Part shown: positions 12,055 through 60,900 of the stretch, piece by piece | How the letters are laid out: every line of letters starts with the position of its first letter | How positions within the stretch are numbered: the stretch's first letter is position 1 | Source of the DNA: an uncultured Gammaproteobacteria bacterium | Lineage (GTDB): Bacteria > Pseudomonadota > Gammaproteobacteria > Steroidobacterales > SZUA-146 | Length of the DNA: 64,000 nt | Direction: 5' to 3' | Assembly (NCBI GenBank): GCA_963922815.1 | Contig: CAWUKD010000002.1 | Location: 2,128 to 66,127, forward strand | Notes under the pieces: model-generated | The model's database searches: none | What the model saw: only the letters and a program-made list of their open reading frames with translations | Told to the model about the DNA's origin: nothing | Position numbers and translations under genes: made by a program

Positions 12055-12104
12055 GAACGCTCTGCCTGAGGTCAGCATAACGACTTCAGGACAGAGCGTT
12101 TTTG
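12055..12104 (+). terminator. probable intrinsic terminator (imperfect long hairpin + T5)
   Basis: GAACGCTCTGCCTGAGGTC pairs with GACTTCAGGACAGAGCGTT and is followed by TTTTT. Confidence 0.5.
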
Positions 12105-12190
12105 CGTTGTGATGCAAACAGCCGAACCAATCTCGCATTGAACGGTGAACTGCCGGTTGTGCCGTACGTCAGACGGCGTTCTGTGAAGCC

Positions 12191-12922
12191 CTAGCCGAGA
12201 GACCTGGACCGACGCAAGGTTTTGGCCACCGCACGCCAGACCAGGGGATTGGTTCCAAGACCGATATGTGAGCCCGGAACACGGATGTGCCTGGCTTGCG
12301 GGTTATAGCGGTCAATGGCCGCCCGCCAGCCGACAATTCCGTCGGACCGGCTGTAAATAACGGTGAGGGGTTGCGTGATACCCTTGGTATTGACGCTGTG
12401 GATGTGCTCTTCGAACGCATCAAGATCAAGGTTTTGTTTCCTGGCATAAAGCTGTGCGGTCGAAGTGTATTTGGGGCCGCCTTCAACCGGCGTACCGAAT
12501 GTGATGACTTCACGCACCGTGGCGGGGGACAGCCGGGCGGCTTCCCGGGCGATCACGCCGCCGAGACTCCAGCCGACAAGCGTAATTTTTTCGTCACTTT
12601 GCCGAACGGAATCTATGTGGTCGATCAGGACTTTGGCGTCGCGCTCGGGGCGGCCTCTGTTGCGGCCCTGCGACCACGGCAGGGCGGTATAGCCCAGGTA
12701 GTCGAGGTAGCGCCGCATCGGCCACGTTGAGGTGTCGTCAGCGAGAAATCCCGGTACCAACATGACCTGACGCCCGTCGCCACGTGGCATGCTCAGAAGC
12801 CAGGGTGCCGCAGGGACCAGCGTCAACGTTTCAAACGGGGCTCTTGCTTCCAGGTATTTGCCCAGACGTGCCGGTGGTTTGAGCCGAAACTCGGTCTCGC
12901 GATTTAGATTGGGTGAGGGCAT
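12191..12922 (-). CDS. alpha/beta-fold hydrolase (esterase/lipase-like)
   Basis: 243 aa with the nucleophile elbow GWSLGG (GxSxG) in alpha/beta hydrolase context. Confidence 0.7.
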   Translation of the reverse strand: MPSPNLNRETEFRLKPPARLGKYLEARAPFETLTLVPAAPWLLSMPRGDGRQVMLVPGFLADDTSTWPMRRYLDYLGYTALPWSQGRNRGRPERDAKVLIDHIDSVRQSDEKITLVGWSLGGVIAREAARLSPATVREVITFGTPVEGGPKYTSTAQLYARKQNLDLDAFEEHIHSVNTKGITQPLTVIYSRSDGIVGWRAAIDRYNPQARHIRVPGSHIGLGTNPLVWRAVAKTLRRSRSLG

Positions 12923-13233
12923 GCAGGTCGCCTGAACAGGAGGTTAGTGACGGAGTGTAATCGATTACAGCCTGAAATGGTGCTATGCGGCATAAATTCA
13001 AGGCCATTCTGTGAGTATTCCCGCTCGGAGAGGCTGCCGTACGGGCATTCCGCGCTCGAAACCTGCTCAATCAGGTCGTTGTGGCACAGTTTCCAGATGG
13101 CCGGGTACCCCAGACTGCAGCCGCAAATCTGTCGGCAAGCTACTGAATGAGGCGCCTCCAGGCCGCCGCAATCGCGGCACGTGACAGCGGCACGGCAGAT
13201 TCTGCTACATTCGACATCGTCCGCGAAGGGAGA

Positions 13234-44848: not shown

Positions 44849-45216
44849 GCTCCTGATATAGAATAGAAAAACAAGTGATGCGGCGTTTGTGGTGCAGTGA
44901 GGCATCGGGACGGCTCACGAGCATTTTCAACATAGTCTGCGGCCGCTCAGCAACATGGGGCAGGGTGACAGAGAGGGGTGTTGCCGGCCGCGGCATCGGA
45001 ATATGTCAAAATGATCGCGCACAGGCGGCCAGCAGTGCTAGACTGGTCGCAGATCATTTGGCGGGCAAAAATAAAAAACACGCCCGAACTATCGATTTAT
45101 TGAGTACGCGCTTCAAAGATTCACGTTAAGTGAGCAGGAACGTGTTCTCGGGTTCGAAAGAGTCCATTGCGATATACCTGATAATTATAGATTGCGCCCA
45201 TTGGGGGGATAAGAAA

Positions 45217-45801
45217 ATGACAAGAATTCTCAAAGCGATTGCACTCGCTTCCATGTTTACGTTCGCTGCGTTTGCTGCCGCTGATTCGGTCACTTACACC
45301 GGCAACACGGAAACCAGTGCTGATGGTTCATGGATGCATCCCGATGCGGATTTCGCCATGCTCGATGCGGACACCACCCTGTATTCAGTTCAGGCATTCA
45401 CCGTTTCTGAAGACGGCATGTACGACATCAGTTCTGCTCAGGGCATGAACGATGCCGGTACTCAGTTTGACGGCATGATTTTCGTTTACGCCAACGCCTT
45501 CGACCCGTCAAATGGTCTATTAAACGGAATTGCGGCTGATGACGATGGCCCGTCTGGTGCAGGTAGCTCGGAAATTCTGGACCTGAGCCTCACGGCTGGT
45601 ACCACGTACTACCTGGTAACCACCGGGTTTACTTCTGAAGACACCGTGTTTGGTGCTGCTTCTGGTCCATTCAGCAATACCATTTCCGGTGACGGTGACA
45701 TTGATCTTGCTGCGCCAGTACCACTGCCTGCAGCCGTATGGCTGATGATCAGCGGTCTGGCCGGACTTGGCCTGATTCGACGACGACCCGCTGCCAGCTA
45801 G
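45217..45801 (+). CDS. secreted protein with VPLPA-CTERM (PEP-CTERM-like) sorting signal
   Basis: Start at ATG 45217 gives the signal peptide MTRILKAIALASMFTFAAFAAA. The C-terminus is VPLPAAVWLMISGLAGLGLIRRR (motif + TM + basic cluster). Confidence 0.7.
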   Translation: MTRILKAIALASMFTFAAFAAADSVTYTGNTETSADGSWMHPDADFAMLDADTTLYSVQAFTVSEDGMYDISSAQGMNDAGTQFDGMIFVYANAFDPSNGLLNGIAADDDGPSGAGSSEILDLSLTAGTTYYLVTTGFTSEDTVFGAASGPFSNTISGDGDIDLAAPVPLPAAVWLMISGLAGLGLIRRRPAAS

Positions 45802-45842
45802 ATCGGCAGTCGCACGAGCAGCGCTCGTGCCACAGTTATGAC

Positions 45843-45870
45843 AAAACCCCGCCGCGTGCGGGGTTTTTTT
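45843..45870 (+). terminator. rho-independent terminator
   Basis: AAAACCCCGC-CGCGT-GCGGGGTTTTTTT. Confidence 0.8.
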
Positions 45871-46334
45871 ATTGCGCTTACATCGTACGAAAGGTGTGAA
45901 TCACAGGGTTTCAATAGGGCCGTCCAGGGACGCTGAGCAGACTCTAGTCGCTCTGTCCGGGCAGGACTGGCCGTCCGATGGCGACTGCCAGTATCATCGC
46001 GAATAACCCCATACCAAGACGGCTTTCCACACGGTCAGGGTCTAACATCGTGCGCTGATTGTGGGCGGCGATTCACCGGTAGTTGACGGCATCCTGTATA
46101 GTCTCGTCGACGTGCCAGGTGCGTGCCCGATCGGCATGTAACGCCCGGCACGCGAAGTGACTGGAATAGGTAACCTCTCGGATCAGTGAACGATTGAATG
46201 ACCACTAAAGTTAATCAAACGTCCTTTCAGCGGAATCTCAATAGCGGGATGGACGGGTATTGCGCCAATTCGGCTGCGCGGCGAACGCGCGCGAGAATAT
46301 GCGTTGATGGGCGAGCGTGCTACGGAGCGTTGAG

Positions 46335-47336
46335 GTGACGGAACTCTACTACGCGGCCGCGTGCCAGACGGATTTCAAAGCGCCGGCAGATCGTGAGGGA
46401 ATCGCTGCCAACACGAAACGGATGTGCGCCATGCTCGAGCAGACGATCGCCGGGTATGAGCCTTTTTTTGACGTTCGTCTGTTTGTGTTTCCCGAATTTG
46501 CGCACGCCGTACCGCTCTATCAAACGACGTCGGAATTGAAAAAACGGCTTGCCGTAACATTGCCTAATGAACATACCGAACAGTATGAAAAGCTGGCCAG
46601 AAAACACGGCTGTTACATTCAGACCGGCACTTTTCTGGAGGTTGATGAGAATTACCCGGGCGCTTTGTTTAATACAACGCTGCTGATTGGCCCCGATGGT
46701 ATTCTGAGCCGGTACCGTAAAGTAAATACCTGGATACCCTGGGAGGTCCATACCTCGCCGGCGGATCTGGGAAACTATACGGAAGAGCTGTTCCCGGTGG
46801 TGGATACGGAGCTTGGAAAGCTCGGTGTTGCCATTTGCTACGACTGGCTGTTTCCGGAAACCATTCGCCAGCTGGGTTTCAACGGTGCCGAAGTTATTTT
46901 GCGGGTGTCTGCCTACATGAACCCCTGGGGTACGGCGGAACCGATGAACTGGTGGGGATTGATCAATCAGACCCGGGCGATAGAAAATACAGCGTACGTT
47001 GTGGCCTCCAATCAGGGCGCCGAGTTTGCCAACTACCCGCCGTTTTGCTGGCCAGGCGGTAGTATGGTGGTGGACTACGATGGTCGCGTACTGGCCCAGG
47101 CAGATGCGGGGCCGGGTGAGCGAGTGGTAGTTGCTCCTATCAATATCGGGCAGCTGCGACACGAGCGCGAACGACGAACCGGGCATGATATGCGTAGCCA
47201 CCTGCGCACCTCTGCCCACTCATATTTGAAACATGATTATCTCGCACCGGCGGGCGACCAGGCGATTACTATCGAGTCGCTAAACGCCCGGATTGGTGAA
47301 GGTAAAGAAACCGTTAAGAAACGCCAAAAGGATTAG
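46335..47336 (+). CDS. carbon-nitrogen hydrolase family protein (aliphatic amidase/formamidase-like)
   Basis: Glu-Lys-Cys triad contexts VFPEF, YRKVNTWIPWE and VAICYDWLFPE. GTG 46335 is preceded by GGAG with a 7-nt spacer (the ORF track starts at GTG 46317). Confidence 0.8.
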   Translation: MTELYYAAACQTDFKAPADREGIAANTKRMCAMLEQTIAGYEPFFDVRLFVFPEFAHAVPLYQTTSELKKRLAVTLPNEHTEQYEKLARKHGCYIQTGTFLEVDENYPGALFNTTLLIGPDGILSRYRKVNTWIPWEVHTSPADLGNYTEELFPVVDTELGKLGVAICYDWLFPETIRQLGFNGAEVILRVSAYMNPWGTAEPMNWWGLINQTRAIENTAYVVASNQGAEFANYPPFCWPGGSMVVDYDGRVLAQADAGPGERVVVAPINIGQLRHERERRTGHDMRSHLRTSAHSYLKHDYLAPAGDQAITIESLNARIGEGKETVKKRQKD

Positions 47337-47342
47337 ACACCC

Positions 47343-50300
47343 ATGCCCAATACTCATCTGCCTGAACAGCTAAGTCGGGTTGGTTCCCGGCTTCGCCGCG
47401 TCGCCACTATATGGCTGGCTGCTGTTTTTGTTATCGGGTGCGGCGATGCCGATGTAACGACAGGCGGTCAGGAGTCCCTGCAGCTCACGGCTAAAGATAT
47501 TGAAATCAATAATCGCGGCGTAGCGTTGATGGGCTACTTTGATTACGCGAGTGCGCGCGAGGCGTTTCGCGAGGCCGTTGATCGACAGCCGCGCTGGGCT
47601 GACGTTAAAGTTAACCTCGCCATTGCCACTTTGAATCGACAAATGGAAGGTGATGAGGTTCTCGCCCGAGGCTACCTCGAAGAGGTGTTGAGCGAAAACC
47701 CGGACAACCTTCGCGCCAGTTTCGTGTCGGGCCTGTTAGCCGAACGCGCCGGTGAAGCCGAACTGGCCAAACAGCGCTATCAACGGGTGCTGGATGAAGA
47801 TCCCAACGATGCGTATGCGGCTTACTATCTGGCGGTTCTTACTCAAACCGATGACCCGGACGCGGCGCGTGAGCTTTTTGCGCGCGCGATTCGCATAGAT
47901 CCTTACCTGCGAAGTGCCTATTACGGCGCTTTCCTGCTCCATGTGCGATCGGGTAATCGTGAGGAGGGCCTCGAAATGCAGGCTATCTACGAACGGCTGG
48001 CCGATAATCCCAGGGCTCGACTCGCAGAAACCAAATATACGCGTATGGGCAGCAAAGCCGATGCTCTGGCGGTGGGTCTGGACAGCATTCAGGACGTCGC
48101 GATCCCCCAGGGGCCGCTGTTTATGGAACCGCAGACCATTGCGACCTTTGCGGTGCCGGGAGACCGCTCCCTGACCACGGTTGATCTGGGGGATGATGGT
48201 CTGCAGGATATTTTTGTGGCAAACTTGGAAGGCCCTGCACAGGTTATTCAGGCAGGCGAGGAAGAGTATAGACAGCTTGAAAACCATCCGCTGAGCGAGC
48301 TGGGACCGATGATTGCGGTTGCCTGGTCTGATATCGACAATGATGGAAAAGTGGATCTGGCTGCGTGCGGGCCCGATTCGGTTACTGTTCATTTCAAAAC
48401 GGGCGTAGACAGCTGGGCGTTAAAGCGGCCATTGCAGTCGCTAACCGGCAACAAGAAATGCAGTGATCTTCAGCTTCTGGATGCTGACCACGATGGAGAC
48501 CTGGATCTTTTTGTCGCGTTCCAGTCGGGCGGTCATGATGTGCTGAGTAATAACGGAGATCGCTCCTTTCGCAGTTTGCGTGAAGAGCGCGATCTCGCGC
48601 TTAGCGACAGATCGGGGCGTAACCTTGTGGCCGCTGATCTCGATAGCGATCGCGACACGGACCTGCTGGTGGTAACTGCGGGTGGTGTCGACATTCTGTT
48701 TAACGACCGGCTGTGGGATTACACGCCTGCCGGCGACGTCGATGCCGCTCAGGTGCCGGGAACCCTGTTGGACACCGATCTTCTGGCGCTGACCGCGGCC
48801 GACGCCAATGCCGACGGCCGCATTGAGCTTTACGGGATAGGAGTCACAGGGCAGCTGCTGCAATGGACGCGCGATGGCGCGGAGTCCTGGACGAGTCGCG
48901 TGTTGTCGACTGTGTCCGCGAATGCGGGTTCATCCGTTGAGATGGATGTCAGTGATTTTAACGGAGACGGCACGCTGGATATGCTGCTCGTCGATGACGA
49001 CGGTTTGCGTGTGCTCAGTCTGGGTGCCGACAGCGTGACGACGCTGTTTGAATTTGAAGGCGATATTTCCAATGCGATGCATCTGGTTGCCGATGCGGAC
49101 AAAGGGCCATCAATCGTGGCACTCGTGGATACGCCGGCAGGGCAGCATTTACTGAGATTTCCGCCGGGGCCCGGCCGCGGCAAATTTGCGGCGCTGACGT
49201 TTGAAGGTCAGGAAGAAAAAGCCGATTCGATGCGGTCGAACCGATCCGGCGTTGGTACTCGCGTCGCCATACGTCGTGGCTCGCAGTGGACCATCAAAGA
49301 TAATTTTGACCGTCATACCGGTCGCGGACAGAGTTCCCAGCCCATCGCTGTGGGCCTCGGCTCTGACGAAGTCGTGGACTATATTGCGATCGACTGGTCC
49401 GACGGTGTGTTTCAGACTGAGCTGAACCTGGAGGCGGGCCGGCAGCACAACGTCACCGAGACCCAAAGGCAATTGTCCAGTTGTCCGGTTCTGTTTGCCT
49501 GGAACGGCGAGGAATGGACATTTCTGAGCGATGTACTTGGCGTGGGTGGTATCGGGTTTCTGCACGACCCGGCGGCACAGGGGGCTTCCCGTTATGGCGA
49601 ACCTCGACCATGGGAATACTTTGCGATTCCCGAAGAGCTGCTTCAGCCCATCGATGGTGCGCTCAAACTCAAAGTAACCGAGCCTATGGAAGAGCTGGCT
49701 TTGCTCGACAATGCGCAGCTTGTTGCATACGACCTGGCTCCGGGCTGGAACATGGTGCTGGATGAGCGCATGTCGACAGGACAGCCTGTTGCCACAGGCC
49801 AGCCCCGCTACTATCGGAACGAATTCAAGGCCGCGCAGGTGGTTCGCGGGGACGGCGCGGACCTGACCGCTGCAGTTGCCCAAACGGATTTTGTCGCAGC
49901 GGACCTTGGCAATGCGCACCCAAGGTTTTTGGGTATGCTCGAAACGCCACACAGCGTGGTCATGAAATTTGATGAGCCACTGAATTCGAAACGTGGACCG
50001 TTATTGCTGAAAGCATCGGGATGGGTCGAGTATCCGTACTCGCAAACCGTTTTTGCGGCCTGGCAGTCCGGGGCGTTGTACACGCCGCCGTCGTTGGAGG
50101 CGGGCGATGATGCCGGCAACTGGACGATGCTCCACAAGAACTTCGGTTATCCGGCCGGCATGCCGCGTGAGATGTCGGTTCCGCTGGGCGTGTTGCCGCC
50201 GAATACGACACAGCTTCGCCTGAGCGGAAATCTGGAAATTTACTGGGACGCGTTGAGCCTGGTCGAGATTGAAGAACCTCCCGAAGCCGATGTGGTTCGC

Positions 50301-50711
50301 CAGTTTCTGCATCTGCGCGAAGCCGAGCTCATGCAAAGCGGTTTTCCCAAGCGCATTCAGCAGCCGCAGCGGCGCCCCGACTATGATTTCAGTCAGCGTA
50401 TTCCGTTTTGGGACACGAGATATCCGGAAGGGTATTACACTGTGCTGGGTGACGTTAAACCGCTGCTCGACGAAACCGATGGCGCGTTTGTGGTCATTGG
50501 GCCCGGCGAGGATGCCGAGCTGGCGTTCGACACGCCCGGAAAATTGAACAATGGATGGACGCGTCGATACGTGTTTTTCGTTTCGGGCTATGCCAAGGAC
50601 ATGGATATGTACACCCAGGACTCTGGAACCGTGGGTCCACTGCCTGAATTCCCATCGGCAAATCGCGCCTTACATAACACCTACAACACGCGGTTCCGCG
50701 ACGGGTACTAG
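47343..50711 (+). CDS. large lipoprotein: TPR repeats + FG-GAP/VCBS beta-propeller repeats + UnbV/ASPIC domain + ~420-aa uncharacterised C-terminal domain
   Basis: Lipobox AVFVIGC. TPR-like helices span aa ~50-235. There are six DxDxDG-type repeats (DIDNDGKVD, DADHDGDLD, DLDSDRDTD, DANADGRIE, DFNGDGTLD...). The UnbV-like segment reads SNRSGVGTRVAIRRG...IAVGLG...IDWSDG. Confidence 0.8.
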   Translation: MPNTHLPEQLSRVGSRLRRVATIWLAAVFVIGCGDADVTTGGQESLQLTAKDIEINNRGVALMGYFDYASAREAFREAVDRQPRWADVKVNLAIATLNRQMEGDEVLARGYLEEVLSENPDNLRASFVSGLLAERAGEAELAKQRYQRVLDEDPNDAYAAYYLAVLTQTDDPDAARELFARAIRIDPYLRSAYYGAFLLHVRSGNREEGLEMQAIYERLADNPRARLAETKYTRMGSKADALAVGLDSIQDVAIPQGPLFMEPQTIATFAVPGDRSLTTVDLGDDGLQDIFVANLEGPAQVIQAGEEEYRQLENHPLSELGPMIAVAWSDIDNDGKVDLAACGPDSVTVHFKTGVDSWALKRPLQSLTGNKKCSDLQLLDADHDGDLDLFVAFQSGGHDVLSNNGDRSFRSLREERDLALSDRSGRNLVAADLDSDRDTDLLVVTAGGVDILFNDRLWDYTPAGDVDAAQVPGTLLDTDLLALTAADANADGRIELYGIGVTGQLLQWTRDGAESWTSRVLSTVSANAGSSVEMDVSDFNGDGTLDMLLVDDDGLRVLSLGADSVTTLFEFEGDISNAMHLVADADKGPSIVALVDTPAGQHLLRFPPGPGRGKFAALTFEGQEEKADSMRSNRSGVGTRVAIRRGSQWTIKDNFDRHTGRGQSSQPIAVGLGSDEVVDYIAIDWSDGVFQTELNLEAGRQHNVTETQRQLSSCPVLFAWNGEEWTFLSDVLGVGGIGFLHDPAAQGASRYGEPRPWEYFAIPEELLQPIDGALKLKVTEPMEELALLDNAQLVAYDLAPGWNMVLDERMSTGQPVATGQPRYYRNEFKAAQVVRGDGADLTAAVAQTDFVAADLGNAHPRFLGMLETPHSVVMKFDEPLNSKRGPLLLKASGWVEYPYSQTVFAAWQSGALYTPPSLEAGDDAGNWTMLHKNFGYPAGMPREMSVPLGVLPPNTTQLRLSGNLEIYWDALSLVEIEEPPEADVVRQFLHLREAELMQSGFPKRIQQPQRRPDYDFSQRIPFWDTRYPEGYYTVLGDVKPLLDETDGAFVVIGPGEDAELAFDTPGKLNNGWTRRYVFFVSGYAKDMDMYTQDSGTVGPLPEFPSANRALHNTYNTRFRDGY

Positions 50712-50892
50712 CGGAACGAAATAGCAATCATTCCGCTACGCGGCTAGCTGTGAACGACGGTGTAGCTTATGATCGGGCTTCCGGTGCCGTTCTATGTGCA
50801 GATAAATATTCAGAGGGCTGCGGGTGAACGACGACACGGTCGAGCATACGGCCTGTTACTAGTGCCAGGAAGATAACTTAAGCGAACCCCGT

Positions 50893-53748
50893 ATGACGCG
50901 TAGAAAAAAATATGTACCCGCGGTTGGACCGCGACTCAAGAAACTGCTGATTTTCGTTTTTGTTTTGTTTGCCCTGCTGTCGGCCAATGCGGTCTATCTG
51001 ATTGCGACCTCTATTCTGGAGTGGTCTACCGGCGAGACTTACCAGAACTTCTTCTACCAGTACATGTTTCTCGCCCATCTGATACTTGGGTTTATCATTA
51101 TCGTGCCGGTGATCGTGTACGGTGCGATACACATCAAGAATGCCCGCAACAGGCCCAACCGTCGCGCGGTAAAAGTGGGGTATGCACTGTTCGTCGTGTC
51201 CCTGCTGCTGCTGGTTACCGGGTTGACGTTGACACAGGGCGTGCCGTTTATCGAGATCAGGCATGCCGGCGCGCGAAGCAGCGCTTACTGGCTGCATACC
51301 CTGAGTCCGCTGTTTATTGGCTGGCTCTTCGTGCTGCATCGGCTGGCCGGACGCCGCATTAACTGGCGAGCCGGATTATGGGTTGGCGGCGTGGCGGCGG
51401 CGTTAACGGCCGTCGCGCTGGTCTGGCAAATGCAGGACCCGCGCCAATGGAACGTGGAGGGTCCGGAGTCGGGCGAAGAATATTTCTTCCCATCACTGGC
51501 GCGAACGGCAAGCGGCCAGTTCATACCCGAAGAAGCCCTGATGATGGATGGCTATTGCGAACAGTGTCACGCTGACACTCATGCAAGCTGGAAAGACAGC
51601 ATGCATCATCTCAGTTCATTCAATAACCCGGCGTACCTGCATTCGGTGCGAGGAACCCGCGCCATGTCGATGGCCAGAGACGGTGATGTTCAGGCGGCCC
51701 GGTTTTGCGCCGGATGCCATGACCCCGTGCCCTTTTTCAGCGGCGCTTTCGATGACCCCAACTTTGATGATGTGAATCACCCGACCGCACATGCCGGTAT
51801 CACTTGCACCAGCTGTCACGCTATTACCAATCTAAACAGCGTGCGCGGTAACGCCGACTACACGATTGAAGAGCCGCTACACTATCCGTTCGCCTACAGC
51901 GACAAGCCCACGCTTCAGGCGATCAATCGTCTGCTGGTAAAGGCGAAGCCCGAGTTTCACAAGAAGACGTTTCTCAAGCCGCTGCACAAGAGTACGGAGT
52001 TTTGTGGTACGTGCCACAAAGTACATTTGCCCGAGGAACTCAATAAGTACAAATGGCTTCGAGGTCAAAACCACTACGACGCGTTCCTCCTGAGCGGAGT
52101 GTCCGGGCACGGTGTGACCAGTTTCTATTATCCGCCCAAGGCCGAGTCGAACTGCAACGGCTGCCACATGGAACTGGAAGCCTCCGATGACTTTGGTGCC
52201 GCCGAATTTGACGATTCCGGTGAGCTAAAGGTGCATAACCACCAGTTTCCGAGCGCTAACACCGCTATCCCGCATGTGCTTGGGTTTGGAGATCGAGCCA
52301 ACGGTGCCCATCGGGATATTCTTGAAGGTTCGCTGCGTGTAGATTTGTTCGGCCTCAAAGAAGAAGGGCGCATTGACGGAAAACTGCACGCGCCTTTGGA
52401 AGACAGCAGTGAAGTGCTGCAGGCCGGCAAGACCTATTTGCTTGAAACCGTGTTGCGTACAATGACTTTGGGGCACACGTTTACTCAGGGTACGGCAGAC
52501 TCGAATCAGGTGTGGGTGGAAGTAACCCTGTCAGCCGACGGCGAAGTCATCGGCGCCAGCGGCAAGCTGGATCCTGAATCGGGCGAAGTGGATCCGTGGG
52601 CGCACTTCGTCAATGCCTACGTTCTTGACAAGAATGGCGCACGCATTGACAGACGCAACGCCGAAGACATTTTTACCGCGCTGTACAATCACCAGATACC
52701 GCCGGGCGCGGCCGATGTCGTACATTATCGCTTCCGTGTTCCACCCACAGCCCGTAACGTAACGATTGAGGCGCGCCTGCACTATCGCAAGTTTGACACG
52801 TTGTTTTATCGTTTGTTTGCTGATGATCCAGCGCTTTATAACGACCTGCCGATTATCACCATTGCTTCTGATCGTGTAACGCTCAGCGTGCAGCCGTCAG
52901 ATTCCGGGGCCGTCGAAGCCCCTGGCGATCGTGCGGCTACCCCGGTGACGGCCTTGCGCTTCAGTCAGAATCCGTCACCGATGAATCCCGAGCTTAAAGT
53001 GGATCGGGAGGGGCGTAAGCCGATTCCTGAATGGCAACGCTGGAACGACTACGGCATTGGTTTGCTACGCAAGCAGGGTGCCGGTGAGTTGCGACAGGCG
53101 GAGGCCGCGTTCAGGCAGGTGGTTGACCTTGGTCGGGCGGATGGTTCGATGAATCTGGCCAGAGTTTACCTGCGTGAAGGAAGGCTGGATGATGCCGCCT
53201 TGTCGCTTGAACAGGCGTCGGCGCATGCCACGCCGTCGCCGCCCTGGTCAATTGATTATTTTACCGGACGGGTCAACAAGCAAAATGGCTATCTCGAAGA
53301 AGCCGCGGCCAACTTCGAAAACGTTATCAATACGAACTATCAAAACGCACGCGAGCGCGGCTTTGATTTTAGTAAGGACTATCGCGTATTGAATGACCTT
53401 GCCGATACCTATGTTGAGCTGTCCCGACTGGAGCGTGGCGATGCCGGTTCCGGATTGCTGAATAAGGCGCGGGACACCTATGCCCGCGCGTTGTCCATTG
53501 ATCCTGAAAATGCGACGGCTCATTACGGGCTTTCTCAGGTGTATGCGCTGCTGGGCGATGAAGACAAAGCGAACGTACATCGTAGTGAACACGCCAAGTA
53601 CAAACCGGACGACAACGCTCGCGATTTTGCGATCAGTACCGCGCGGCGGAACGATCCGGCGGCTAACCATGCCGCGGACGCGATTGTGATTAACGACTTG
53701 CAGTGGCGCCCGGTCACCACCAATGCAAAGTCAGGGGTTTCCCATTAG
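50893..53748 (+). CDS. membrane-anchored pentaheme c-type cytochrome fused to C-terminal TPR domain
   Basis: Five hydrophobic helices (aa ~16-178). Five CXXCH motifs: CEQCH, CAGCH, CTSCH, CGTCH, CNGCH (nt 51556-52167). TPR-like repeats span aa ~700-930. Confidence 0.8.
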   Translation: MTRRKKYVPAVGPRLKKLLIFVFVLFALLSANAVYLIATSILEWSTGETYQNFFYQYMFLAHLILGFIIIVPVIVYGAIHIKNARNRPNRRAVKVGYALFVVSLLLLVTGLTLTQGVPFIEIRHAGARSSAYWLHTLSPLFIGWLFVLHRLAGRRINWRAGLWVGGVAAALTAVALVWQMQDPRQWNVEGPESGEEYFFPSLARTASGQFIPEEALMMDGYCEQCHADTHASWKDSMHHLSSFNNPAYLHSVRGTRAMSMARDGDVQAARFCAGCHDPVPFFSGAFDDPNFDDVNHPTAHAGITCTSCHAITNLNSVRGNADYTIEEPLHYPFAYSDKPTLQAINRLLVKAKPEFHKKTFLKPLHKSTEFCGTCHKVHLPEELNKYKWLRGQNHYDAFLLSGVSGHGVTSFYYPPKAESNCNGCHMELEASDDFGAAEFDDSGELKVHNHQFPSANTAIPHVLGFGDRANGAHRDILEGSLRVDLFGLKEEGRIDGKLHAPLEDSSEVLQAGKTYLLETVLRTMTLGHTFTQGTADSNQVWVEVTLSADGEVIGASGKLDPESGEVDPWAHFVNAYVLDKNGARIDRRNAEDIFTALYNHQIPPGAADVVHYRFRVPPTARNVTIEARLHYRKFDTLFYRLFADDPALYNDLPIITIASDRVTLSVQPSDSGAVEAPGDRAATPVTALRFSQNPSPMNPELKVDREGRKPIPEWQRWNDYGIGLLRKQGAGELRQAEAAFRQVVDLGRADGSMNLARVYLREGRLDDAALSLEQASAHATPSPPWSIDYFTGRVNKQNGYLEEAAANFENVINTNYQNARERGFDFSKDYRVLNDLADTYVELSRLERGDAGSGLLNKARDTYARALSIDPENATAHYGLSQVYALLGDEDKANVHRSEHAKYKPDDNARDFAISTARRNDPAANHAADAIVINDLQWRPVTTNAKSGVSH

Positions 53749-53785
53749 ACTACGATTCCGGTTTTTCTGACGCAGGCATCCGAGC

Positions 53786-55600
53786 ATGACAACAACACCG
53801 CCCGACGAGTTTTCTGACGTTCAGGATGACGCCATTATTGGTGTCTATCTGCGACGTTCTTTGTGGGTTTTCGCTGCGATTGCCCTGATCGGTGCCAGTT
53901 TCTGGTGGTGGCAGCAGCGTGAGGTGTCCGAGGGACCCGTCGTTCAGGGCAATGAAACGGGGCCGGCGGTGGTAACCACAGCCGAACCTGAGGCGCCGGC
54001 CATTCGCTTCGTCAATGTCGCGAGTGCGTCGGGAATCGAATTTGTTCATACGAACGGTGCGTATGGATTGAAGCTGTTGCCCGAGACCATGGGTGGTGGC
54101 GTGGCGTTGTTCGACTATAACAACGACGGATTGATTGATGTATTCCTGGTCAATTCGTCAGACTGGCCGTGGGAGTCAAGCGGCCAGGCGGCGACGCACG
54201 CGCTGTATAAAAATAATGGTGATTGGCAGTTCGAAAACGTTACAGAGGCTGCGGGTCTGGCGCTTACCGACTATGGAATGGGTGTTGCCGTTGGCGATTT
54301 TGACAGTGATGGTTTCGAAGATCTCTATGTGACGACGGTTGGACCCAATCGACTGCTTCGTAACCAGAATGGCGAGCGCTTTGTGGAAGTAGATCTTGGA
54401 ACACAAGGCGGTGCGACCGAGTGGAGTACCAGCGCCGCTTTCTTCGATATGGACGGCGACGGTGACCTGGATCTGTTTTCGGCGAACTATGTCGAATGGT
54501 CTCGGGACATCGATCTCGAAGTAGACTATCAGTTGACGGGCATCGGCAGAGCCTACGGACCACCGACCAACTATCGAGGCACGCAGTCCCGTCTCTGGCG
54601 CAATGATGGAGAGCGCTTTACGGATATCAGCGAAAACATTCACGTCACCAATTCCGCCACCGGCCAGCCGGTTGGCAAGGCGCTCGCTGTTCGACCTGAA
54701 GATCTAAACGGCGATGGCGCCATTGACCTGATTGTGGCTAACGATACGGTGCAAAACTTTGTGTTTCTTAATCAGGGTAATGGCTCGTTCATCGAGCAGG
54801 GCGCGCTGATGGGAATGGCATTTGATAACAGTGGTAACGCGACCGGTGCGATGGGCGTTGACTCGGCGTTTTATAAAAACGACGGTGATGTAGCGGTTGT
54901 CATTGGTAACTTCGCCAACGAAATGACATCGTTTTATGTGTCTCGCGGTAGCGATGTGTTTACCGACGAGAGCATTGTCTCTGGCATAGGACCGGACAGC
55001 AGGCGGGCTTTGAGCTTTGGGCTTCAGTTTTTTGATGCCGACCTCGATGGTCGACCCGACCTGATCACGGCTAACGGTCATGTTGAAGATGACATCAACA
55101 CCGTTCAGCCCAGCCAGCAGCACGCCCAGCCTGCGCAGCTTTTCTGGAACTGCGGTGAGGCCTGTCGTCGAACCTTCGTGCGTATTCCTGACGCCAGTCT
55201 GGGTGATTTAGCCACGCCCATTATTGGCAGGGGTGCCGCGGCTGCTGATCTCGACAACGACGGTGATCCGGACGTTGTATTAACCCAGATCGGGGCCGCG
55301 CCGCTGGTTCTGCGCAATGATGGTGGCGACCAGTCTGACGCGAACTGGCTCAGAGTTACGCTGCGCCAGACGGGTAAGAATCCGCGAGCGATTGGAGCAA
55401 AAGTCTCCGTTGCGGCGGGTGGGCAGACGCAGCGGCAAATGATCATGCCGGCTCGCAGCTATTTGTCGCAGATTCCGGCTGATGCCTTATTTGGCCTCGG
55501 AGCCGCGACAGAAGCCGCCGTCGAAATTGTTTGGCCTGATGGAGAAGTCAGTATTTACAATGGCTTAGAGATTAACCAGGTGCATGAATTGACGCGTTGA
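53786..55600 (+). CDS. CRTAC1-like protein (N-terminal anchor, FG-GAP/VCBS repeats, UnbV/ASPIC domain)
   Basis: TM anchor LWVFAAIALIGASFWWW. Repeats FDYNNDGLIDVF, GDFDSDGFEDLY, FDMDGDGDLDLF, DLNGDGAIDLI, DLDNDGDPDVV. The C-terminal UnbV-like segment reads RAIGAKVSVAAGG...LFGLG...IVWPDG. Confidence 0.8.
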   Translation: MTTTPPDEFSDVQDDAIIGVYLRRSLWVFAAIALIGASFWWWQQREVSEGPVVQGNETGPAVVTTAEPEAPAIRFVNVASASGIEFVHTNGAYGLKLLPETMGGGVALFDYNNDGLIDVFLVNSSDWPWESSGQAATHALYKNNGDWQFENVTEAAGLALTDYGMGVAVGDFDSDGFEDLYVTTVGPNRLLRNQNGERFVEVDLGTQGGATEWSTSAAFFDMDGDGDLDLFSANYVEWSRDIDLEVDYQLTGIGRAYGPPTNYRGTQSRLWRNDGERFTDISENIHVTNSATGQPVGKALAVRPEDLNGDGAIDLIVANDTVQNFVFLNQGNGSFIEQGALMGMAFDNSGNATGAMGVDSAFYKNDGDVAVVIGNFANEMTSFYVSRGSDVFTDESIVSGIGPDSRRALSFGLQFFDADLDGRPDLITANGHVEDDINTVQPSQQHAQPAQLFWNCGEACRRTFVRIPDASLGDLATPIIGRGAAAADLDNDGDPDVVLTQIGAAPLVLRNDGGDQSDANWLRVTLRQTGKNPRAIGAKVSVAAGGQTQRQMIMPARSYLSQIPADALFGLGAATEAAVEIVWPDGEVSIYNGLEINQVHELTR

Positions 55601-55614
55601 TCCTCATGAAAGAA

Positions 55615-55634
55615 TACTGTATAAATATACAGTA
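55615..55634. promoter_or_regulatory. LexA (SOS) box TACTGTATAAATATACAGTA
   Basis: Matches CTGT-N8-ACAG and 19/20 of the gammaproteobacterial consensus TACTGTATATATATACAGTA. Its last base is the A of the radical-SAM ATG. Confidence 0.8.
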
Positions 55635-56782
55635 TGAAACAAGAGCCAACCATTCAGGATCTTTTTGACGGGGCGAACAGCCGGGTGACAGCGCCCAATG
55701 CGCGTTTGCAGCGCTCTGTGCGCAGCGGTCGGGGAGTAGCCGCCTCGCCCAAACCAAGATTCGCCAGGTTCAGCAGTGAGGCAGTAAGCGATGACTGGTT
55801 CATGGAGCCGGATGACTTACCGCCGACGAAGATCCCCACCCGGGTACACGACGAGATTGTTCGCAGTATTATCAGTCGTAATCAGTCCCCCGACGTTCCG
55901 TTTGATCAGTCGATAAATCCGTATCGCGGATGTGAGCATGGCTGTGTGTATTGCTACGCAAGGCCCAGTCACAGCTTCGTCGATCTATCACCCGGACTGG
56001 ACTTTGAAACCCGCCTGTTTGCAAAGACCAATGCTGCGGCCACGCTGGAGCGCGAACTGATGGCTCCGGGTTACCAGTGTTCGCCAATTAATCTGGGCGC
56101 GAACACGGATCCTTACCAGCCGCTTGAGAAAGAACGCAAGATTACCCGGGAAGTACTTGAAGTACTGGACCGCCTGGATCATCCGGTGACCATAATTACG
56201 AAGGGGTCACTGATTCTGCGGGATCTGGATATTCTTGAACGCATGGCGCACCGTAATCTGGTGTCGGTCGCGGTCAGCATTACGACGCTCGACGACTCAC
56301 TGAAGCGAACTCTTGAGCCGCGGACGGCGTCGCCTTCTGCGCGACTAAGAGTTGTTAAGGAACTCAGTAAGCGAGGGATTCCCGTTACGTTGTTGCTGGC
56401 TCCTGTGATACCGGCGCTCAACGATCATGAAATCGAATCGATTGTGAGAGCCGCTGCAAACGCAGGGGCGACCAGTGCGCGCTATATTTTCTTGCGCCTT
56501 CCATATGAAGTAAAAGAACTGTTTGCAGACTGGTTGATTGATCACTATCCCCTGAAGGCCCGGCACGTGCTCAATCTGGTCAGCGATTCGCGCAATGGAA
56601 AAGCCAATGACTCGGACTTTTCACAGCGTATGACCGGTACCGGTCCGTACGCCAGAATGATTCAAACGCGCTTCGACAAGGTGGTTAAAAAATGCGGGCT
56701 CGATGTGACAGAGCGCCCTCAGCTCGATACGAGCCAGTTTGCGCGCAATCATCCATCCCGGTCGCAGCTGAGCCTGCTCTAG
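55634..56782 (+). CDS. radical SAM protein, PA0069 / SplB-like family
   Basis: NPYRGCEHGCVYCYARPSH (CxxxCxxC), 382 aa, with the LexA box at its start. Confidence 0.85.
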   Translation: MKQEPTIQDLFDGANSRVTAPNARLQRSVRSGRGVAASPKPRFARFSSEAVSDDWFMEPDDLPPTKIPTRVHDEIVRSIISRNQSPDVPFDQSINPYRGCEHGCVYCYARPSHSFVDLSPGLDFETRLFAKTNAAATLERELMAPGYQCSPINLGANTDPYQPLEKERKITREVLEVLDRLDHPVTIITKGSLILRDLDILERMAHRNLVSVAVSITTLDDSLKRTLEPRTASPSARLRVVKELSKRGIPVTLLLAPVIPALNDHEIESIVRAAANAGATSARYIFLRLPYEVKELFADWLIDHYPLKARHVLNLVSDSRNGKANDSDFSQRMTGTGPYARMIQTRFDKVVKKCGLDVTERPQLDTSQFARNHPSRSQLSLL

Positions 56783-59118: not shown

Positions 59119-60900
59119 GTGAATGTGCGTTGGCCAAAACTCTGCCTGTGTTTCTTTGTGTTCTGCCTCGGAGCCTGCTCCGGTTCAGGCCCGGACCTGC
59201 CGATTTATGAAGACGTCACCGAACTCAGCGGGCTTCAGTTTGTGCATCAGAATGGCAGCGATAATACGCTGGCCCTGCCACCCATTCTGGGCAGTGGCGT
59301 TGCGCTTTTTGATGTGGATAACGATGGCGATCTGGATATCTATCTTGTTCAGGGTCGTGGGGGGCTGGGTGGTCCGGACGAAATCTGGATTAATGAGTCA
59401 GAAGGTGACCGGCTGCGCTTTGACCGGGCTCCGGATCAGCCGGCGTTCGCGTCGGATTTTCCTGGCATGGGGGTGGCGGTAGGCGATGCCAATCTGGATG
59501 GACGTCTGGATGTTGCAGTCACCACGCTTGGCGTCAATCGCCTGCTGCTAAACCATGAAGCAGGCTTTGTCGTTTCCGGGGCCGGGGCCGGGGCCTTTGG
59601 AACTGATGAAGCCTGGAGTGCCTCTTTAGTCTGGCTGGACGCCAACGGCGACCAGCGGCCCGATGTTTACATTGCCAATGTTGCCGAATTTGATGCTTCC
59701 ATGGAGTGGCGATCGATCACCAGTCGACCGGACTATTGCGACGCCGGTGCGTATGTCCCGTTACACGATCAGCTGCTGCTTAATATTGAGACACTGGAGT
59801 CCGGTGACGTCGTCTTCGAAGATGTCAGCCTCGACTGGAATCTGGTGGCGAACAAGGCTCCGAGTCTCGGAGTTCGCGCGGGGGACTTTAACAACGATGG
59901 TCTGCCCGACGTTTACGTTGCCTCCCCTGGCGCACCCAATACGCTGTGGCTTAACGAGCGCGGGCGCAGGTTCAGTGACCTGACCCGGTCCTCCGGAGCA
60001 GCTGCAAGTTTCCTGGGCAGGTACCGGGGAAGCTTTGGCGTTGATGCCGCCGATATGGATGGCGACGATGACCTTGATCTGGTTGTGTCGCACAGCCTGG
60101 ATGAGCCGCATCAGGTCTATCTTAACGACGGGCTGGGTAACTTTATCGCCGACGATCTGATTGCAGGCGGGGTTAGCGCATCACAGAGCGGTGCCGGGCT
60201 TGTTGTGCTGGACGCGAACACCGATGGTTTCGATGATGTATTTGTTGCCAACGGAGCGACTCGCCAGCGGCAGGCACAGCTCGACGCCGGAGACCTCTTG
60301 CCGCTGCGGGAGTCGAACACGCTGTTTCTGCAGAGCAAGGAACGCGGGTATCAGCCGGAAGGTGGCACCGCTGCGATTGCGGGCACGATGGCTACAGTAG
60401 ACACGGCAACTCCTCCAGCTCACGGCGAAGCGAATGTGCCGGTGGCCGATGCACCCATAGAATTCGATGTGTGGGAAGAAAACGCCGAGCGCCTTACGCC
60501 GCGACCCCATGCGTCCCGCAGCGTTGCCTCCGGCGATCTCGATAACGATGGCGATCTCGATCTGGTGATCACAAATAATGGCGGGCCGGCACAGATTCTG
60601 CGCAGCACGCGAAACCCCGAAAACTGGATTGGAATTTCTGCTGTGTCCGAAGACACCGGGCTTGCCGTCACTGGTGCGCGGGTAAAACAACTGGACCCGG
60701 AGGCTGCGGGTACCCGCGAAATTCGACGATCGCACGGTTATCTGAGTGCCAGCGATCCACGCCTGATTTTTTATCACTTGCCGGAAGACGCAGAGTTCGT
60801 CACGTATGAGGTGACATGGCCCGGAGCACCGGCGGAGCGCTTCACTGTACCCGTCGAGCCTCGATATCATTCGCTGATTCGCGGGCAAGGCCAGCCATGA
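59119..60900 (+). CDS. CRTAC1-like lipoprotein (FG-GAP/VCBS repeats + UnbV/ASPIC-like C-terminus)
   Basis: GTG start and lipobox FCLGAC. Seven DxDxDG-type repeats (FDVDNDGDLDIY, GDANLDGRLDV, GDFNNDGLPDV, DMDGDDDLDLV, GDLDNDGDLDLV...). Confidence 0.75.
   Translation: MNVRWPKLCLCFFVFCLGACSGSGPDLPIYEDVTELSGLQFVHQNGSDNTLALPPILGSGVALFDVDNDGDLDIYLVQGRGGLGGPDEIWINESEGDRLRFDRAPDQPAFASDFPGMGVAVGDANLDGRLDVAVTTLGVNRLLLNHEAGFVVSGAGAGAFGTDEAWSASLVWLDANGDQRPDVYIANVAEFDASMEWRSITSRPDYCDAGAYVPLHDQLLLNIETLESGDVVFEDVSLDWNLVANKAPSLGVRAGDFNNDGLPDVYVASPGAPNTLWLNERGRRFSDLTRSSGAAASFLGRYRGSFGVDAADMDGDDDLDLVVSHSLDEPHQVYLNDGLGNFIADDLIAGGVSASQSGAGLVVLDANTDGFDDVFVANGATRQRQAQLDAGDLLPLRESNTLFLQSKERGYQPEGGTAAIAGTMATVDTATPPAHGEANVPVADAPIEFDVWEENAERLTPRPHASRSVASGDLDNDGDLDLVITNNGGPAQILRSTRNPENWIGISAVSEDTGLAVTGARVKQLDPEAAGTREIRRSHGYLSASDPRLIFYHLPEDAEFVTYEVTWPGAPAERFTVPVEPRYHSLIRGQGQP

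What the first reader, a model, noticed from the sequence alone, without database searches (positions are those of the whole stretch)
50893..53748. Three-part fusion: polytopic membrane domain with conserved-looking His + five c-type heme sites + TPR array
The N-terminus (MTRRKK, positive-inside) is followed by five hydrophobic helices (aa ~16-42, 53-79, 93-113, 131-151, 161-178). An odd number of helices places the rest of the protein in the periplasm, as c-heme attachment requires. His residues lie in or at the helices (H62, H80, H135, H149), which could ligate b-type hemes or contact quinol; this is speculative. Five CXXCH motifs follow at aa 222, 272, 305, 371 and 421, then ~270 aa of unknown fold, then a TPR domain (aa ~700-930). 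A quinol-to-periplasm electron conduit fused to a protein-interaction scaffold would be well suited to dock onto the neighbouring TPR and propeller proteins. I do not know of a characterised example of this architecture.
Basis: partly seen in the sequence, partly recalled or inferred. Interest (0 to 1): 0.7.

Follow-up and report, generated by a model that had tools for sequence, protein, structure and literature searches.

The report
Membrane b/c multiheme protein with propeller partner
This gene encodes a real three-part protein: a membrane domain that probably holds two b-type hemes, a five-heme periplasmic cytochrome, and a TPR docking domain. It belongs to a large, uncharacterised family found in many bacterial phyla, and it almost always sits next to a calcium-propeller (CRTAC1-like) gene, so the two genes look like an undescribed electron-transfer module.

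Summary
ORF 50893-53748 (951 aa) has five transmembrane helices with the N-terminus in the cytoplasm, five CXXCH motifs that use all ten of its cysteines, and a C-terminal TPR array.

The "unknown fold" is an Ig-like beta-sandwich joined to the heme domain. Together they match the T. tepidum penta-heme cytochrome c552 (5ZE8). This is the same cap-plus-Ig-like layout as the Geobacter polysulfide reductase MccSep.

H80 and H149 are lost together in divergent relatives. That fits two bis-His b-hemes, one on the periplasmic side (H62/H135) and one on the cytoplasmic side (H80/H149). A weak profile match to formate dehydrogenase FdnI aligns three of the four His with known heme ligands.

The family is large: at least 592 species genomes and 631 clusters at 50% identity. 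No characterised member or describing paper was found.

In 67 of 71 informative loci, an FG-GAP/UnbV (CRTAC1-like) gene lies directly downstream. Two distant relatives examined, one lacking the membrane domain, also sit next to such a gene.

Most likely this is a quinone-pool-coupled b/c electron conduit that works with the propeller partner. Its substrate and the direction of electron flow are unknown. I rate it a new variant of known kinds, of moderately high interest.

The parts
50893..53748 (+). Whole ORF, 951 aa: TM domain + pentaheme/Ig-like unit + TPR
50929..51432 (+). Five-helix membrane domain (TM1 aa 13-46, TM2 53-84, TM3 90-113, TM4 125-151, TM5 158-180), N-in topology
   Evidence: AlphaFold secondary structure; hydropathy; positive-inside counts
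51076..51078 (+). H62 codon (TM2, periplasmic side): proposed ligand of the periplasmic-side b-heme, paired with H135
   Evidence: invariant in A1-A4; aligns with FdnI H57
51295..51297 (+). H135 codon (TM4, periplasmic side): proposed second ligand of the periplasmic-side b-heme
   Evidence: invariant in A1-A4; aligns with FdnI H155
51130..51132 (+). H80 codon (cytoplasmic end of TM2): proposed ligand of the cytoplasmic-side b-heme, paired with H149
   Evidence: invariant in the main clade; 67/87 in the diverse set; lost together with H149
51337..51339 (+). H149 codon (cytoplasmic end of TM4): proposed second ligand of the cytoplasmic-side b-heme
   Evidence: aligns with FdnI H169
51433..51540 (+). 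Conserved juxtamembrane linker (DPRxWN..GP.SGEqYFFPSLARTxxGxFIP) between TM5 and the heme domain
   Evidence: invariant columns D182, P183, W186, G190, Y197, F198, P200-L202, R204, T205, G208
51541..52212 (+). Pentaheme c-type domain. CXXCH codons at 51556-51570, 51706-51720, 51805-51819, 52003-52017, 52153-52167
   Evidence: all five motifs in 86-87 of 87 diverse relatives; Foldseek hit to 5ZE8
52213..52893 (+). Ig-like beta-sandwich (aa ~441-667) joined to the heme domain. It carries the universally conserved H450 and the G527-H528 motif
52894..53028 (+). Low-confidence, poorly conserved tether (aa 668-712)
   Evidence: pLDDT below 50
53029..53676 (+). TPR domain (aa 713-928, about six helix pairs)
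   Evidence: Pfam TPR families above threshold; model; Foldseek; PDB profile hits
53786..55600 (+). Partner gene: membrane-anchored FG-GAP beta-propeller + UnbV_ASPIC (CRTAC1-like), 37 nt downstream
   Evidence: Pfam; CRTAC1 9etn_A at E 2e-15; orthologue directly downstream in 67/71 loci
47343..50711 (+). Upstream lipoprotein-like TPR + FG-GAP + UnbV_ASPIC protein (1122 aa). Syntenic in the Gammaproteobacteria. More distant versions lie upstream in other phyla
46317..47336 (+). CN_hydrolase gene, first gene of the + strand cluster after the terminator at 45843-45867. Conserved only in closer relatives
55634..56782 (+). PA0069-family radical SAM gene, last gene of the cluster. Syntenic only in close relatives (L005, L012, L087)

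Best explanation
The gene encodes an inner-membrane b/c-type multiheme electron conduit. It works as a two-gene module with the CRTAC1-like propeller encoded just downstream.

Proposed mechanism:
- The N-terminal five-helix domain binds two b-type hemes stacked across the membrane. H62 and H135 hold the periplasmic-side heme. H80 and H149 hold the cytoplasmic-side heme.
- This domain exchanges electrons with the quinone pool. By analogy with FdnI, the quinone site would lie near the cytoplasmic-side heme.
- Electrons pass between the periplasmic-side b-heme and a c552/MccSep-type unit of five c-hemes capped by an Ig-like domain.
- A C-terminal TPR domain on a roughly 45-residue flexible tether holds the membrane-anchored Ca-binding FG-GAP/UnbV propeller. 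The propeller would bind or present the substrate.

Shown here: the domain anatomy, the topology, conservation of the motifs and His residues, the fold match of the periplasmic unit, and the conserved gene pairing.

Inferred: heme b binding, quinone coupling, the TPR-propeller contact, and the direction of electron flow. I lean about 60:40 towards quinol to periplasm, because related pentaheme enzymes are reductases. The substrate is unknown.
For: Anatomy and topology.

Membrane His residues:
- All four are invariant in 30 full-length and 29 TM-domain sequences from Gammaproteobacteria, Planctomycetota, Acidobacteriota, Latescibacterota and Deltaproteobacteria.
- In 87 diverse relatives (33-61% identity), H62 and H135 are each present in 82, and H80 and H149 each in 67. 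Sixty-five sequences have all four. About 14 keep H62/H135 but lack both H80 and H149 (Fisher p = 8e-13, not corrected for phylogeny).
- H62 lies 9 residues and H135 lies 10 residues from the periplasmic ends of their helices. H80 and H149 lie at the cytoplasmic ends.
- Conserved Gly residues (G66, G77, G96, G110) lie on helices of the bundle.

Similarity to known b-cytochromes:
- Weak Pfam matches recur in diverse members: Ni_hydr_CYTB in 12 of 40 and DUF4405 in 5 of 40.
- A profile-profile match to FdnI has E 4.8e-4 and probability 32%. It aligns H62, H135 and H149 with FdnI H57, H155 and H169. These are heme ligands in 1KQF, as I recall.

Periplasmic unit:
- Pfam Cytochrome_C554 scores 28.5 bits against a cut-off of 20.8.
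- Foldseek matches 5ZE8 at E 5.7e-13, TM-score 0.65 over 484 columns.
- Four non-motif His (H238, H356, H450, H528) and M426 are near-universal. That gives five candidate distal ligands for five hemes.

Partner gene:
- It lies directly downstream on the same strand in 67 of 71 loci. Start and stop overlap by 4 bp, or are 7 bp apart, in other phyla.
- A 32%-identical relative and a relative without the TM domain are also adjacent to FG-GAP/UnbV genes.
- Other neighbouring genes vary.
Against: - No heme or quinone binding was measured.
- The membrane domain matches no Pfam or NCBIfam family at curated thresholds. It matches no PDB sequence, and Foldseek found no solved TM structure for it.
- hhalign against single FdnI and HyaC sequences gave about 1-2% probability. 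The profile version gave only 32%.
- I could not measure His-His distances, because model coordinates are not exposed.
- The partner has only one conserved His and no conserved Cys, so it shows no obvious redox centre. What the electrons are used for is unclear.
- Four Acidobacteriota loci lack the downstream partner.
- Relatives without the TM domain show that the membrane domain is dispensable for the core function.
Confidence: 0.6

Rival explanations
1. The protein is itself a membrane-bound multiheme enzyme. One c-heme would have an open or unusual distal site at the interface with the Ig-like domain, as in the polysulfide reductase MccSep. It would reduce or oxidise a small periplasmic substrate. 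The propeller would be only an accessory or scaffold.
For: - The fold is shared with c552. MccSep has the same cap-plus-Ig-like layout.
- In MccSep, hemes 1, 3, 4 and 5 are bis-His, and heme 2 forms the active site together with a loop from the Ig-like domain (bioRxiv 10.1101/2025.11.18.688581).
- Here only four non-motif His are universally conserved for five hemes. One of them (G527-H528) lies in the Ig-like domain within a strongly conserved motif.
Against: - The protein has no Cys or Sec outside the CXXCH motifs, so it lacks the MccSep catalytic residues.
- The near-universal M426 could supply the fifth distal ligand, which would leave no open site.
- The very tight pairing with the propeller gene argues that the propeller is more than an accessory.
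- This reading does not exclude the main explanation.
Confidence: 0.25
2. The five-helix domain is only a membrane anchor or an interaction platform and binds no heme. The conserved His residues would serve another role, such as metal or lipid binding or helix packing. Electrons would reach the c-hemes from separate carriers.
For: - The domain matches no curated family and no solved structure.
- Relatives without the TM domain exist and still keep the propeller partner.
Against: - Four His residues at matched depths on two helices are invariant across phyla and are lost as a pair.
- Conserved Gly residues lie on the helices of the bundle.
- The register-correct alignment to three FdnI heme ligands is hard to explain for a passive anchor.
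Confidence: 0.1
3. The module is not respiratory. The multiheme protein would oxidatively mature or modify the propeller partner or another envelope protein (a MauG-like role), or it would act as a periplasmic redox sensor.
For: - The gene pair is tightly coupled and no other redox gene is conserved nearby.
- The partner lacks an obvious redox centre.
- A TPR domain suits the binding of a protein substrate.
Against: - A two-heme transmembrane domain plus five c-hemes is elaborate for a maturation factor.
- The protein has no output domain that a sensor would need.
- No evidence points specifically to a modification of the partner.
Confidence: 0.08

Closest known systems
Penta-heme cytochrome c552 of Thermochromatium tepidum (PDB 5ZE8); related PtdA proteins
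   Same: Both have five CXXCH hemes in an alpha-helical cap followed by an Ig-like beta-sandwich. Foldseek gives E 5.7e-13 and TM-score 0.65. Sequence matches give E 9e-5 with the profile and 6e-4 with the single sequence.
   Different: c552 is a soluble protein of about 435 aa, and its function is unknown. It has no membrane domain and no TPR. Identity is only 18%.
MccSep / ExtKL polysulfide reductase of Geobacter sulfurreducens
   Same: Both have five c-hemes plus a C-terminal Ig-like domain that reaches the heme pocket. Four hemes are bis-His. NCBIfam ExtKL gives a weak match at E 9e-4.
   Different: The MccSep active site needs the distal Cys239 and Sec325. The window protein has no Cys or Sec outside CXXCH. 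MccSep is a soluble tetramer.
CbcL / MtrH / MtoC inner-membrane b/c cytochromes (Geobacter and others)
   Same: The concept is the same. One polypeptide joins a di-heme b-type membrane domain to a periplasmic multiheme c domain, and is proposed to exchange electrons with the quinone pool in either direction (PMC9129911, PMC6295460).
   Different: CbcL has its nine c-hemes at the N-terminus and six HydC/FdnI-like TM helices at the C-terminus, which is the opposite order. It has no Ig-like or TPR domain and no propeller partner. Here the TM domain has five helices and is only marginally FdnI-like.
FdnI / HydC (HyaC) di-heme cytochrome b subunits (Pfam PF01292)
   Same: The helices run across the membrane from an N-in start. 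There is one His on TM2 and two His 14 residues apart on TM4. hhalign aligns H62, H135 and H149 with FdnI H57, H155 and H169.
   Different: These are separate four-helix subunits, and their fourth ligand sits on TM1 (H18). Here TM1 has no His and the fourth His (H80) is at the end of TM2. Curated HMM thresholds are not reached.
NapC/NirT/NrfH/CymA and ImcH quinol dehydrogenases
   Same: These are also membrane-anchored multiheme c-type proteins that link the quinone pool to periplasmic redox partners.
   Different: They are anchored by one to three helices and have no b-hemes. Pfam and NCBIfam gave no significant match.

Membership tests
c552/MccSep-type pentaheme cytochrome with Ig-like domain | Five CXXCH heme-binding motifs | tested here: met
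   aa 222, 272, 305, 371, 421. All five are present in 86-87 of 87 relatives.
c552/MccSep-type pentaheme cytochrome with Ig-like domain | Alpha-helical heme cap followed by an Ig-like beta-sandwich, with fold similarity to 5ZE8 | tested here: met
   Foldseek E 5.7e-13, TM-score 0.65 normalised to the target, 484 columns. The model has mean pLDDT 92.8.
c552/MccSep-type pentaheme cytochrome with Ig-like domain | MccSep catalytic pair: a heme-ligating Cys and a Sec/Cys from the Ig-like domain | tested here: not met
   There is no Cys outside the CXXCH motifs and no in-frame UGA.
c552/MccSep-type pentaheme cytochrome with Ig-like domain | Covalently bound c-type heme | not testable with these tools
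   This needs heme staining or mass spectrometry.
Ni_hydr_CYTB / FdnI / HydC di-heme cytochrome b (PF01292) | HMM match above the curated threshold | tested here: not met
   No hit for the window protein. Sub-threshold hits occur in 2 of 29 and 12 of 40 relatives.
Ni_hydr_CYTB / FdnI / HydC di-heme cytochrome b (PF01292) | Profile-level homology with the heme ligands in register | tested here: inconclusive
   hhalign A4 against the FdnI profile gives probability 32% and E 4.8e-4. H62, H135 and H149 align with H57, H155 and H169. Single-sequence templates gave about 1-2%.
Ni_hydr_CYTB / FdnI / HydC di-heme cytochrome b (PF01292) | Fourth heme ligand on TM1 | tested here: not met
   TM1 (aa 13-46) has no His. 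The conserved fourth His is H80 on TM2.
Di-heme transmembrane cytochrome b (functional class) | Four conserved His at two matched membrane depths on two helices | tested here: met
Di-heme transmembrane cytochrome b (functional class) | His pairs placed so that each pair can ligate one heme | not testable with these tools
CbcL/MtrH/MtoC | N-terminal multiheme c domain followed by a C-terminal six-helix HydC/FdnI-like domain | tested here: not met
   The domain order is reversed, the TM domain has five helices, and a TPR domain is added. The CbcL layout is taken from PMC6295460.
NapC/NirT/NrfH | Single N-terminal anchor helix plus a tetraheme domain, with an HMM match | tested here: not met
   There are five helices and five hemes. 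The NrfH/NapC-type models gave no significant hits.
TPR repeat domain | TPR HMM matches above threshold and a helical-repeat fold | tested here: met
   TPR_19, TPR_16, TPR_2, TPR_11, TPR_8 and TPR_17 score above their cut-offs. The model shows helix pairs at 713-928. Foldseek hits MamA and consensus TPR proteins.

The most novel reading that the evidence does not exclude
The cytochrome-propeller pair is a previously unrecognised and widespread respiratory or energy-conserving enzyme. The Ca-binding CRTAC1-like beta-propeller would be the substrate-binding or catalytic subunit, wired to the quinone pool through seven hemes. This would give the first biochemical function for the bacterial CRTAC1/ASPIC-UnbV family. 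It would also add a new electron entry or exit point in sediment and soil bacteria of at least five phyla.
Probability: 0.3. Interest if true: 0.8.

Novelty: new variant of a known kind. Interest (0 to 1): 0.62.

Why it matters
The protein is about 56-66% identical between phyla and occurs in at least 592 species-level genomes. All of the best 80 matches are uncultured MAGs from the Gammaproteobacteria, Planctomycetota, Acidobacteriota, Latescibacterota and Deltaproteobacteria. Database records name it only "tetratricopeptide repeat protein" or "multiheme c-type cytochrome".

Such strong conservation and so fixed a gene pairing imply an important function that has not been assigned. If the module is confirmed, three things follow:
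- It would add a new family of quinone-coupled b/c cytochromes.
- It would give a first functional handle on bacterial CRTAC1-like propellers, which are abundant but uncharacterised.
- It would supply a marker gene pair for an unknown redox process in these bacteria.

Tried and rejected
- Foldseek with the full-length model returned only TPR hits. I therefore re-modelled aa 1-700.
- Profile searches of the membrane domain against PDB sequences gave only GPCR-type noise.
- hhalign against single E. coli FdnI and HyaC sequences showed no similarity.
- A homologue search seeded with FdnI returned only close relatives (at least 74% identity). The resulting FdnI profile is shallow and the match reached only 32% probability.
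- Literature searches for UnbV/ASPIC/CRTAC1 together with multiheme or TPR terms found no description of this family.
- The original c552 paper is not held in the library.
- The cluster look-up for the window protein gave no name or organism.
- Promoter and terminator scans were at background level, apart from the hairpin at 45843-45867.
- I rejected three readings: MccSep-type sulfur reductase (no Cys or Sec), CbcL family member (reversed order, different domains), and NapC/NrfH member (no HMM match).
- I do not count the radical SAM and CN_hydrolase neighbours as core parts. They are syntenic only in closer relatives.
Full report
**1. The observation**

ORF 50893..53748 on the + strand encodes 951 aa. 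Five CXXCH motifs lie at aa 222, 272, 305, 371 and 421. They account for all ten cysteines. In 20,000 shuffles of the sequence, none had two or more CXXCH.

A first AlphaFold model of the whole protein, built from 30 close homologues, was mediocre (mean pLDDT 68.9). A second model of aa 1-700, built from 98 diverse relatives, is excellent (mean pLDDT 92.8, pTM 0.88).

Lys+Arg counts are 7, 6 and 4 on the N-terminus and the 2-3 and 4-5 loops. They are 0 and 2 on the 1-2 and 3-4 loops. The topology is therefore N-in and C-out, as c-heme attachment in the periplasm requires.

The TPR domain is confirmed in four ways:
- Pfam matches at aa 729-893, with six TPR families above threshold.
- Helix pairs at aa 713-928 in the model.
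- Profile matches to TPR proteins in the PDB.
- Foldseek matches to MamA and consensus TPR proteins.

**2. The "unknown fold"**

Residues ~440-667 form an Ig-like beta-sandwich. Foldseek of the aa 1-700 model against the PDB gives one outstanding hit. This is 5ZE8, the penta-heme cytochrome c552 of Thermochromatium tepidum (E 5.7e-13, TM-score 0.65 normalised to the target, 484 columns, 18% identity). The remaining hits are weak and unrelated, mostly beta-sandwich proteins.

Sequence searches agree, though weakly. The profile gives E 9e-5, the single sequence gives 6e-4, and Pfam Cytochrome_C554 scores 28.5 bits against a cut-off of 20.8.

The same "five-heme cap plus Ig-like stem" occurs in two other proteins:
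- MccSep/ExtKL, the Geobacter polysulfide reductase. Its hemes 1, 3, 4 and 5 are bis-His. Heme 2, ligated by Cys239 and flanked by Sec325 from the Ig-like domain, is the active site (bioRxiv 10.1101/2025.11.18.688581).
- PtdA, a protein of unknown function (bioRxiv 10.1101/2023.11.21.568154).

In the window's family, four non-motif His are universal (H238, H356, H450, H528; 86-87 of 87) and M426 is near-universal (85 of 87). H450 and H528 lie in the Ig-like part. This gives five candidate distal ligands for five hemes. It fits a pure electron wire with four bis-His hemes and one His/Met heme. It does not exclude a special heme at the interface with the Ig-like domain. The protein has no Cys or Sec outside CXXCH, so it is not an MccSep-type enzyme.

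**3. The membrane domain**

They are also invariant in 29 TM domains taken from genomes of five phyla. H124 is not conserved.

Conservation in more distant relatives (15-61% identity):

| Residue | Present in diverse set (of 87) | Status in A3/A4 |
|---|---|---|
| H62 | 82 | invariant |
| H135 | 82 | invariant |
| H80 | 67 | nearly invariant in A3; mostly kept in A4 |
| H149 | 67 | nearly invariant in A3; mostly kept in A4 |
| G110 | not counted | invariant |
| G66, G96 | not counted | nearly invariant |

Sixty-five of the 87 sequences have all four His. About 14 keep H62 and H135 but lack both H80 and H149, and only about three have one of the two. The Fisher test gives p = 8e-13, but it is not corrected for phylogeny.

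H62 and H135 lie 9 and 10 residues from the periplasmic ends of TM2 and TM4. H80 and H149 lie at the cytoplasmic ends. The spacings of 18 and 14 residues keep each pair on one helix face.

The simplest reading is two bis-His b-hemes. H62/H135 would hold one on the periplasmic side, and H80/H149 would hold one on the cytoplasmic side. From my own knowledge, this is the design of FdnI, NarI and cytochrome b.

Family membership is not established:
- No Pfam or NCBIfam model is matched at threshold.
- No PDB sequence is matched.
- Foldseek found no solved TM structure.

There is nevertheless a recurrent weak signal:
- Ni_hydr_CYTB is hit in 12 of 40 diverse members (best E 0.0016), and DUF4405 in 5 of 40.
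- A few JGI records call homologues "cytochrome b subunit of formate dehydrogenase".
- A profile-profile comparison with FdnI gives E 4.8e-4 and probability 32% over TM1-TM4. It aligns H62, H135 and H149 with FdnI H57, H155 and H169. As I recall from 1KQF, these are three of its four heme ligands.

The fourth FdnI ligand is on TM1. Here TM1 has no His, and H80 takes that role.

**4. Family and context**

The word-indexed search scored 6,639 proteins at E ≤ 1e-3. The best 120 are full length (about 900-980 aa) and 59-100% identical. Where named at all, they are called only "tetratricopeptide repeat protein" or "multiheme c-type cytochrome".

The exhaustive search with aa 1-700 found 631 clusters (at 50% identity) at E ≤ 1e-30 and 2,916 at E ≤ 1e-3. 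Most full-length representatives have about five N-terminal helices and five heme motifs. Some carry CX4CH as the first motif. A few lack the membrane domain.

At least 592 species-representative genomes carry a relative. The best 80 are all MAGs of Gammaproteobacteria, Planctomycetota/Phycisphaerae, Acidobacteriota/Thermoanaerobaculia, Latescibacterota and Deltaproteobacteria, at 56-81% identity.

The gene pairing is the strongest contextual result:
- An orthologue of the downstream gene 53786-55600 (FG-GAP propeller + UnbV_ASPIC, 47-76% identity) lies directly downstream on the same strand in 67 of 71 loci with enough sequence.
- Start and stop overlap by 4 bp, or are 7 bp apart, in other phyla.
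- A 32%-identical relative has such a gene 27 nt upstream.
- A relative without the TM domain has one overlapping by 4 bp downstream.
- One locus carries two paralogous pairs.
- All other neighbours vary between phyla.
- The larger window synteny (CN_hydrolase, 1122-aa TPR-FG-GAP-UnbV protein, target, partner, radical SAM) holds only in related Gammaproteobacteria.

The partner's only PDB relative is human CRTAC1 (E 2e-15). It keeps the DxDxDG calcium motifs and family-specific NFANEM and NGHxE motifs. It has only one conserved His and no conserved Cys, so no obvious redox centre is visible. It also has a conserved N-terminal "DDxIIG...S" motif followed by a single anchor helix.

**5. Mechanism**

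I conclude that the protein is a quinone-pool-coupled b/c electron conduit. Two membrane b-hemes would feed, or be fed by, five periplasmic c-hemes. The conduit is functionally tied to a membrane-anchored CRTAC1-like propeller. The tethered TPR domain plausibly holds that propeller.

- Shown: the anatomy, the topology, the conservation, the fold of the periplasmic unit, and the gene pairing.
- Inferred: b-heme binding, quinone coupling and TPR docking.

The direction of electron flow is unresolved. A two-heme transmembrane path with a quinone site on the cytoplasmic side would resemble FdnI or HydC, where a periplasmic donor reduces quinone and energy is conserved. The homologous pentaheme enzymes, in contrast, are reductases, and CbcL-type fusions are proposed to work in both directions (PMC6295460). 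I lean 60:40 towards quinol to periplasm.

**6. Comparison and novelty**

The closest characterised analogue in concept is CbcL of Geobacter, which joins a di-heme b domain to nine c-hemes. Its order is reversed, with the c-hemes N-terminal and six HydC/FdnI-like helices C-terminal. It has neither an Ig-like domain nor a TPR domain, and no propeller partner (PMC9129911, PMC6295460).

The periplasmic unit belongs structurally with c552, MccSep and PtdA, but it lacks the MccSep catalytic residues.

I found no paper describing this family or its pairing with CRTAC1-like genes. One paper notes CRTAC1-family genes sitting between genes for hydrazine-synthase-like subunits in non-anammox bacteria (PMC12758564). 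That hints that such propellers may be linked to periplasmic redox proteins more than once.

Each part is of a known kind. The combination, the divergent membrane domain and the fixed partner are new. My verdict is a new variant of known kinds, in a large uncharacterised family.

Noticed in passing
window 53786-53920 (N-terminus of the partner protein): The CRTAC1-like partner has a conserved cytoplasmic motif (E/D)DDx(I/V)IGxxxxxS directly before a single anchor helix. The motif is conserved across phyla (D15, I18 and S25 are at least 95% conserved). It may contact the five-helix domain of the cytochrome.
   Followed up: partly
proteins P0182, P0187, P0194, P0204, P0228 and others: Divergent relatives carry CX4CH (for example CGQAGCH or CGKSGCH) in place of CXXCH at the first heme site. 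A simple CXXCH count therefore gives them only four motifs.
   Followed up: partly
L090 6001-9926; proteins P0242, P0245, P0255, P0259, P0268: Some family members lack the five-helix membrane domain (712-755 aa, zero or one N-terminal helix). P0245 is still followed by an FG-GAP/UnbV gene with a 4-bp overlap and is preceded by more FG-GAP/TPR genes.
   Followed up: partly
L072 2750-6546 and 10001-13821: One Deltaproteobacteria contig carries two paralogous cytochrome + FG-GAP pairs. The second cytochrome is 27% identical to the window protein.
   Followed up: no
L002, L048, L054, L067: Four Acidobacteriota/Thermoanaerobaculia loci lack the partner directly downstream. L048 has FG-GAP paralogues upstream. 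L054 and L067 show none within 10 kb.
   Followed up: partly
window 59119-62540: A second FG-GAP gene (59119-60900) overlaps a TPR gene (60816-62540) by about 85 nt. The same pair follows the cytochrome cluster in L007, L024-L026, L052, L076 and L087.
   Followed up: no
window 45130-45867: A PEP-CTERM/VPLPA-CTERM sorting-signal protein (45130-45801) is followed by the only strong terminator-like hairpin in the region (45843-45867). This hairpin marks the start of the + strand cluster 46317-56782.
   Followed up: partly
window 55634-56782: This PA0069-family radical SAM protein scores 484 bits, above its cut-off. It lies directly after the partner gene but is syntenic only in close relatives (L005, L012, L087).
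   Followed up: partly
window 10284-14901: A GH16 glycoside hydrolase has a C-terminal dockerin-type domain (10284-12026). A glucose/sorbosone dehydrogenase-like protein has a thrombospondin type 3 repeat (13147-14901). These are unusual domain combinations for a Gammaproteobacterium.
   Followed up: no
literature: PMC12758564: In non-anammox bacteria, genes for homologues of the hydrazine synthase alpha and beta-gamma subunits flank a CRTAC1-family FG-GAP gene. This is a second case in which such a propeller gene sits among genes for periplasmic redox proteins.
   Followed up: partly
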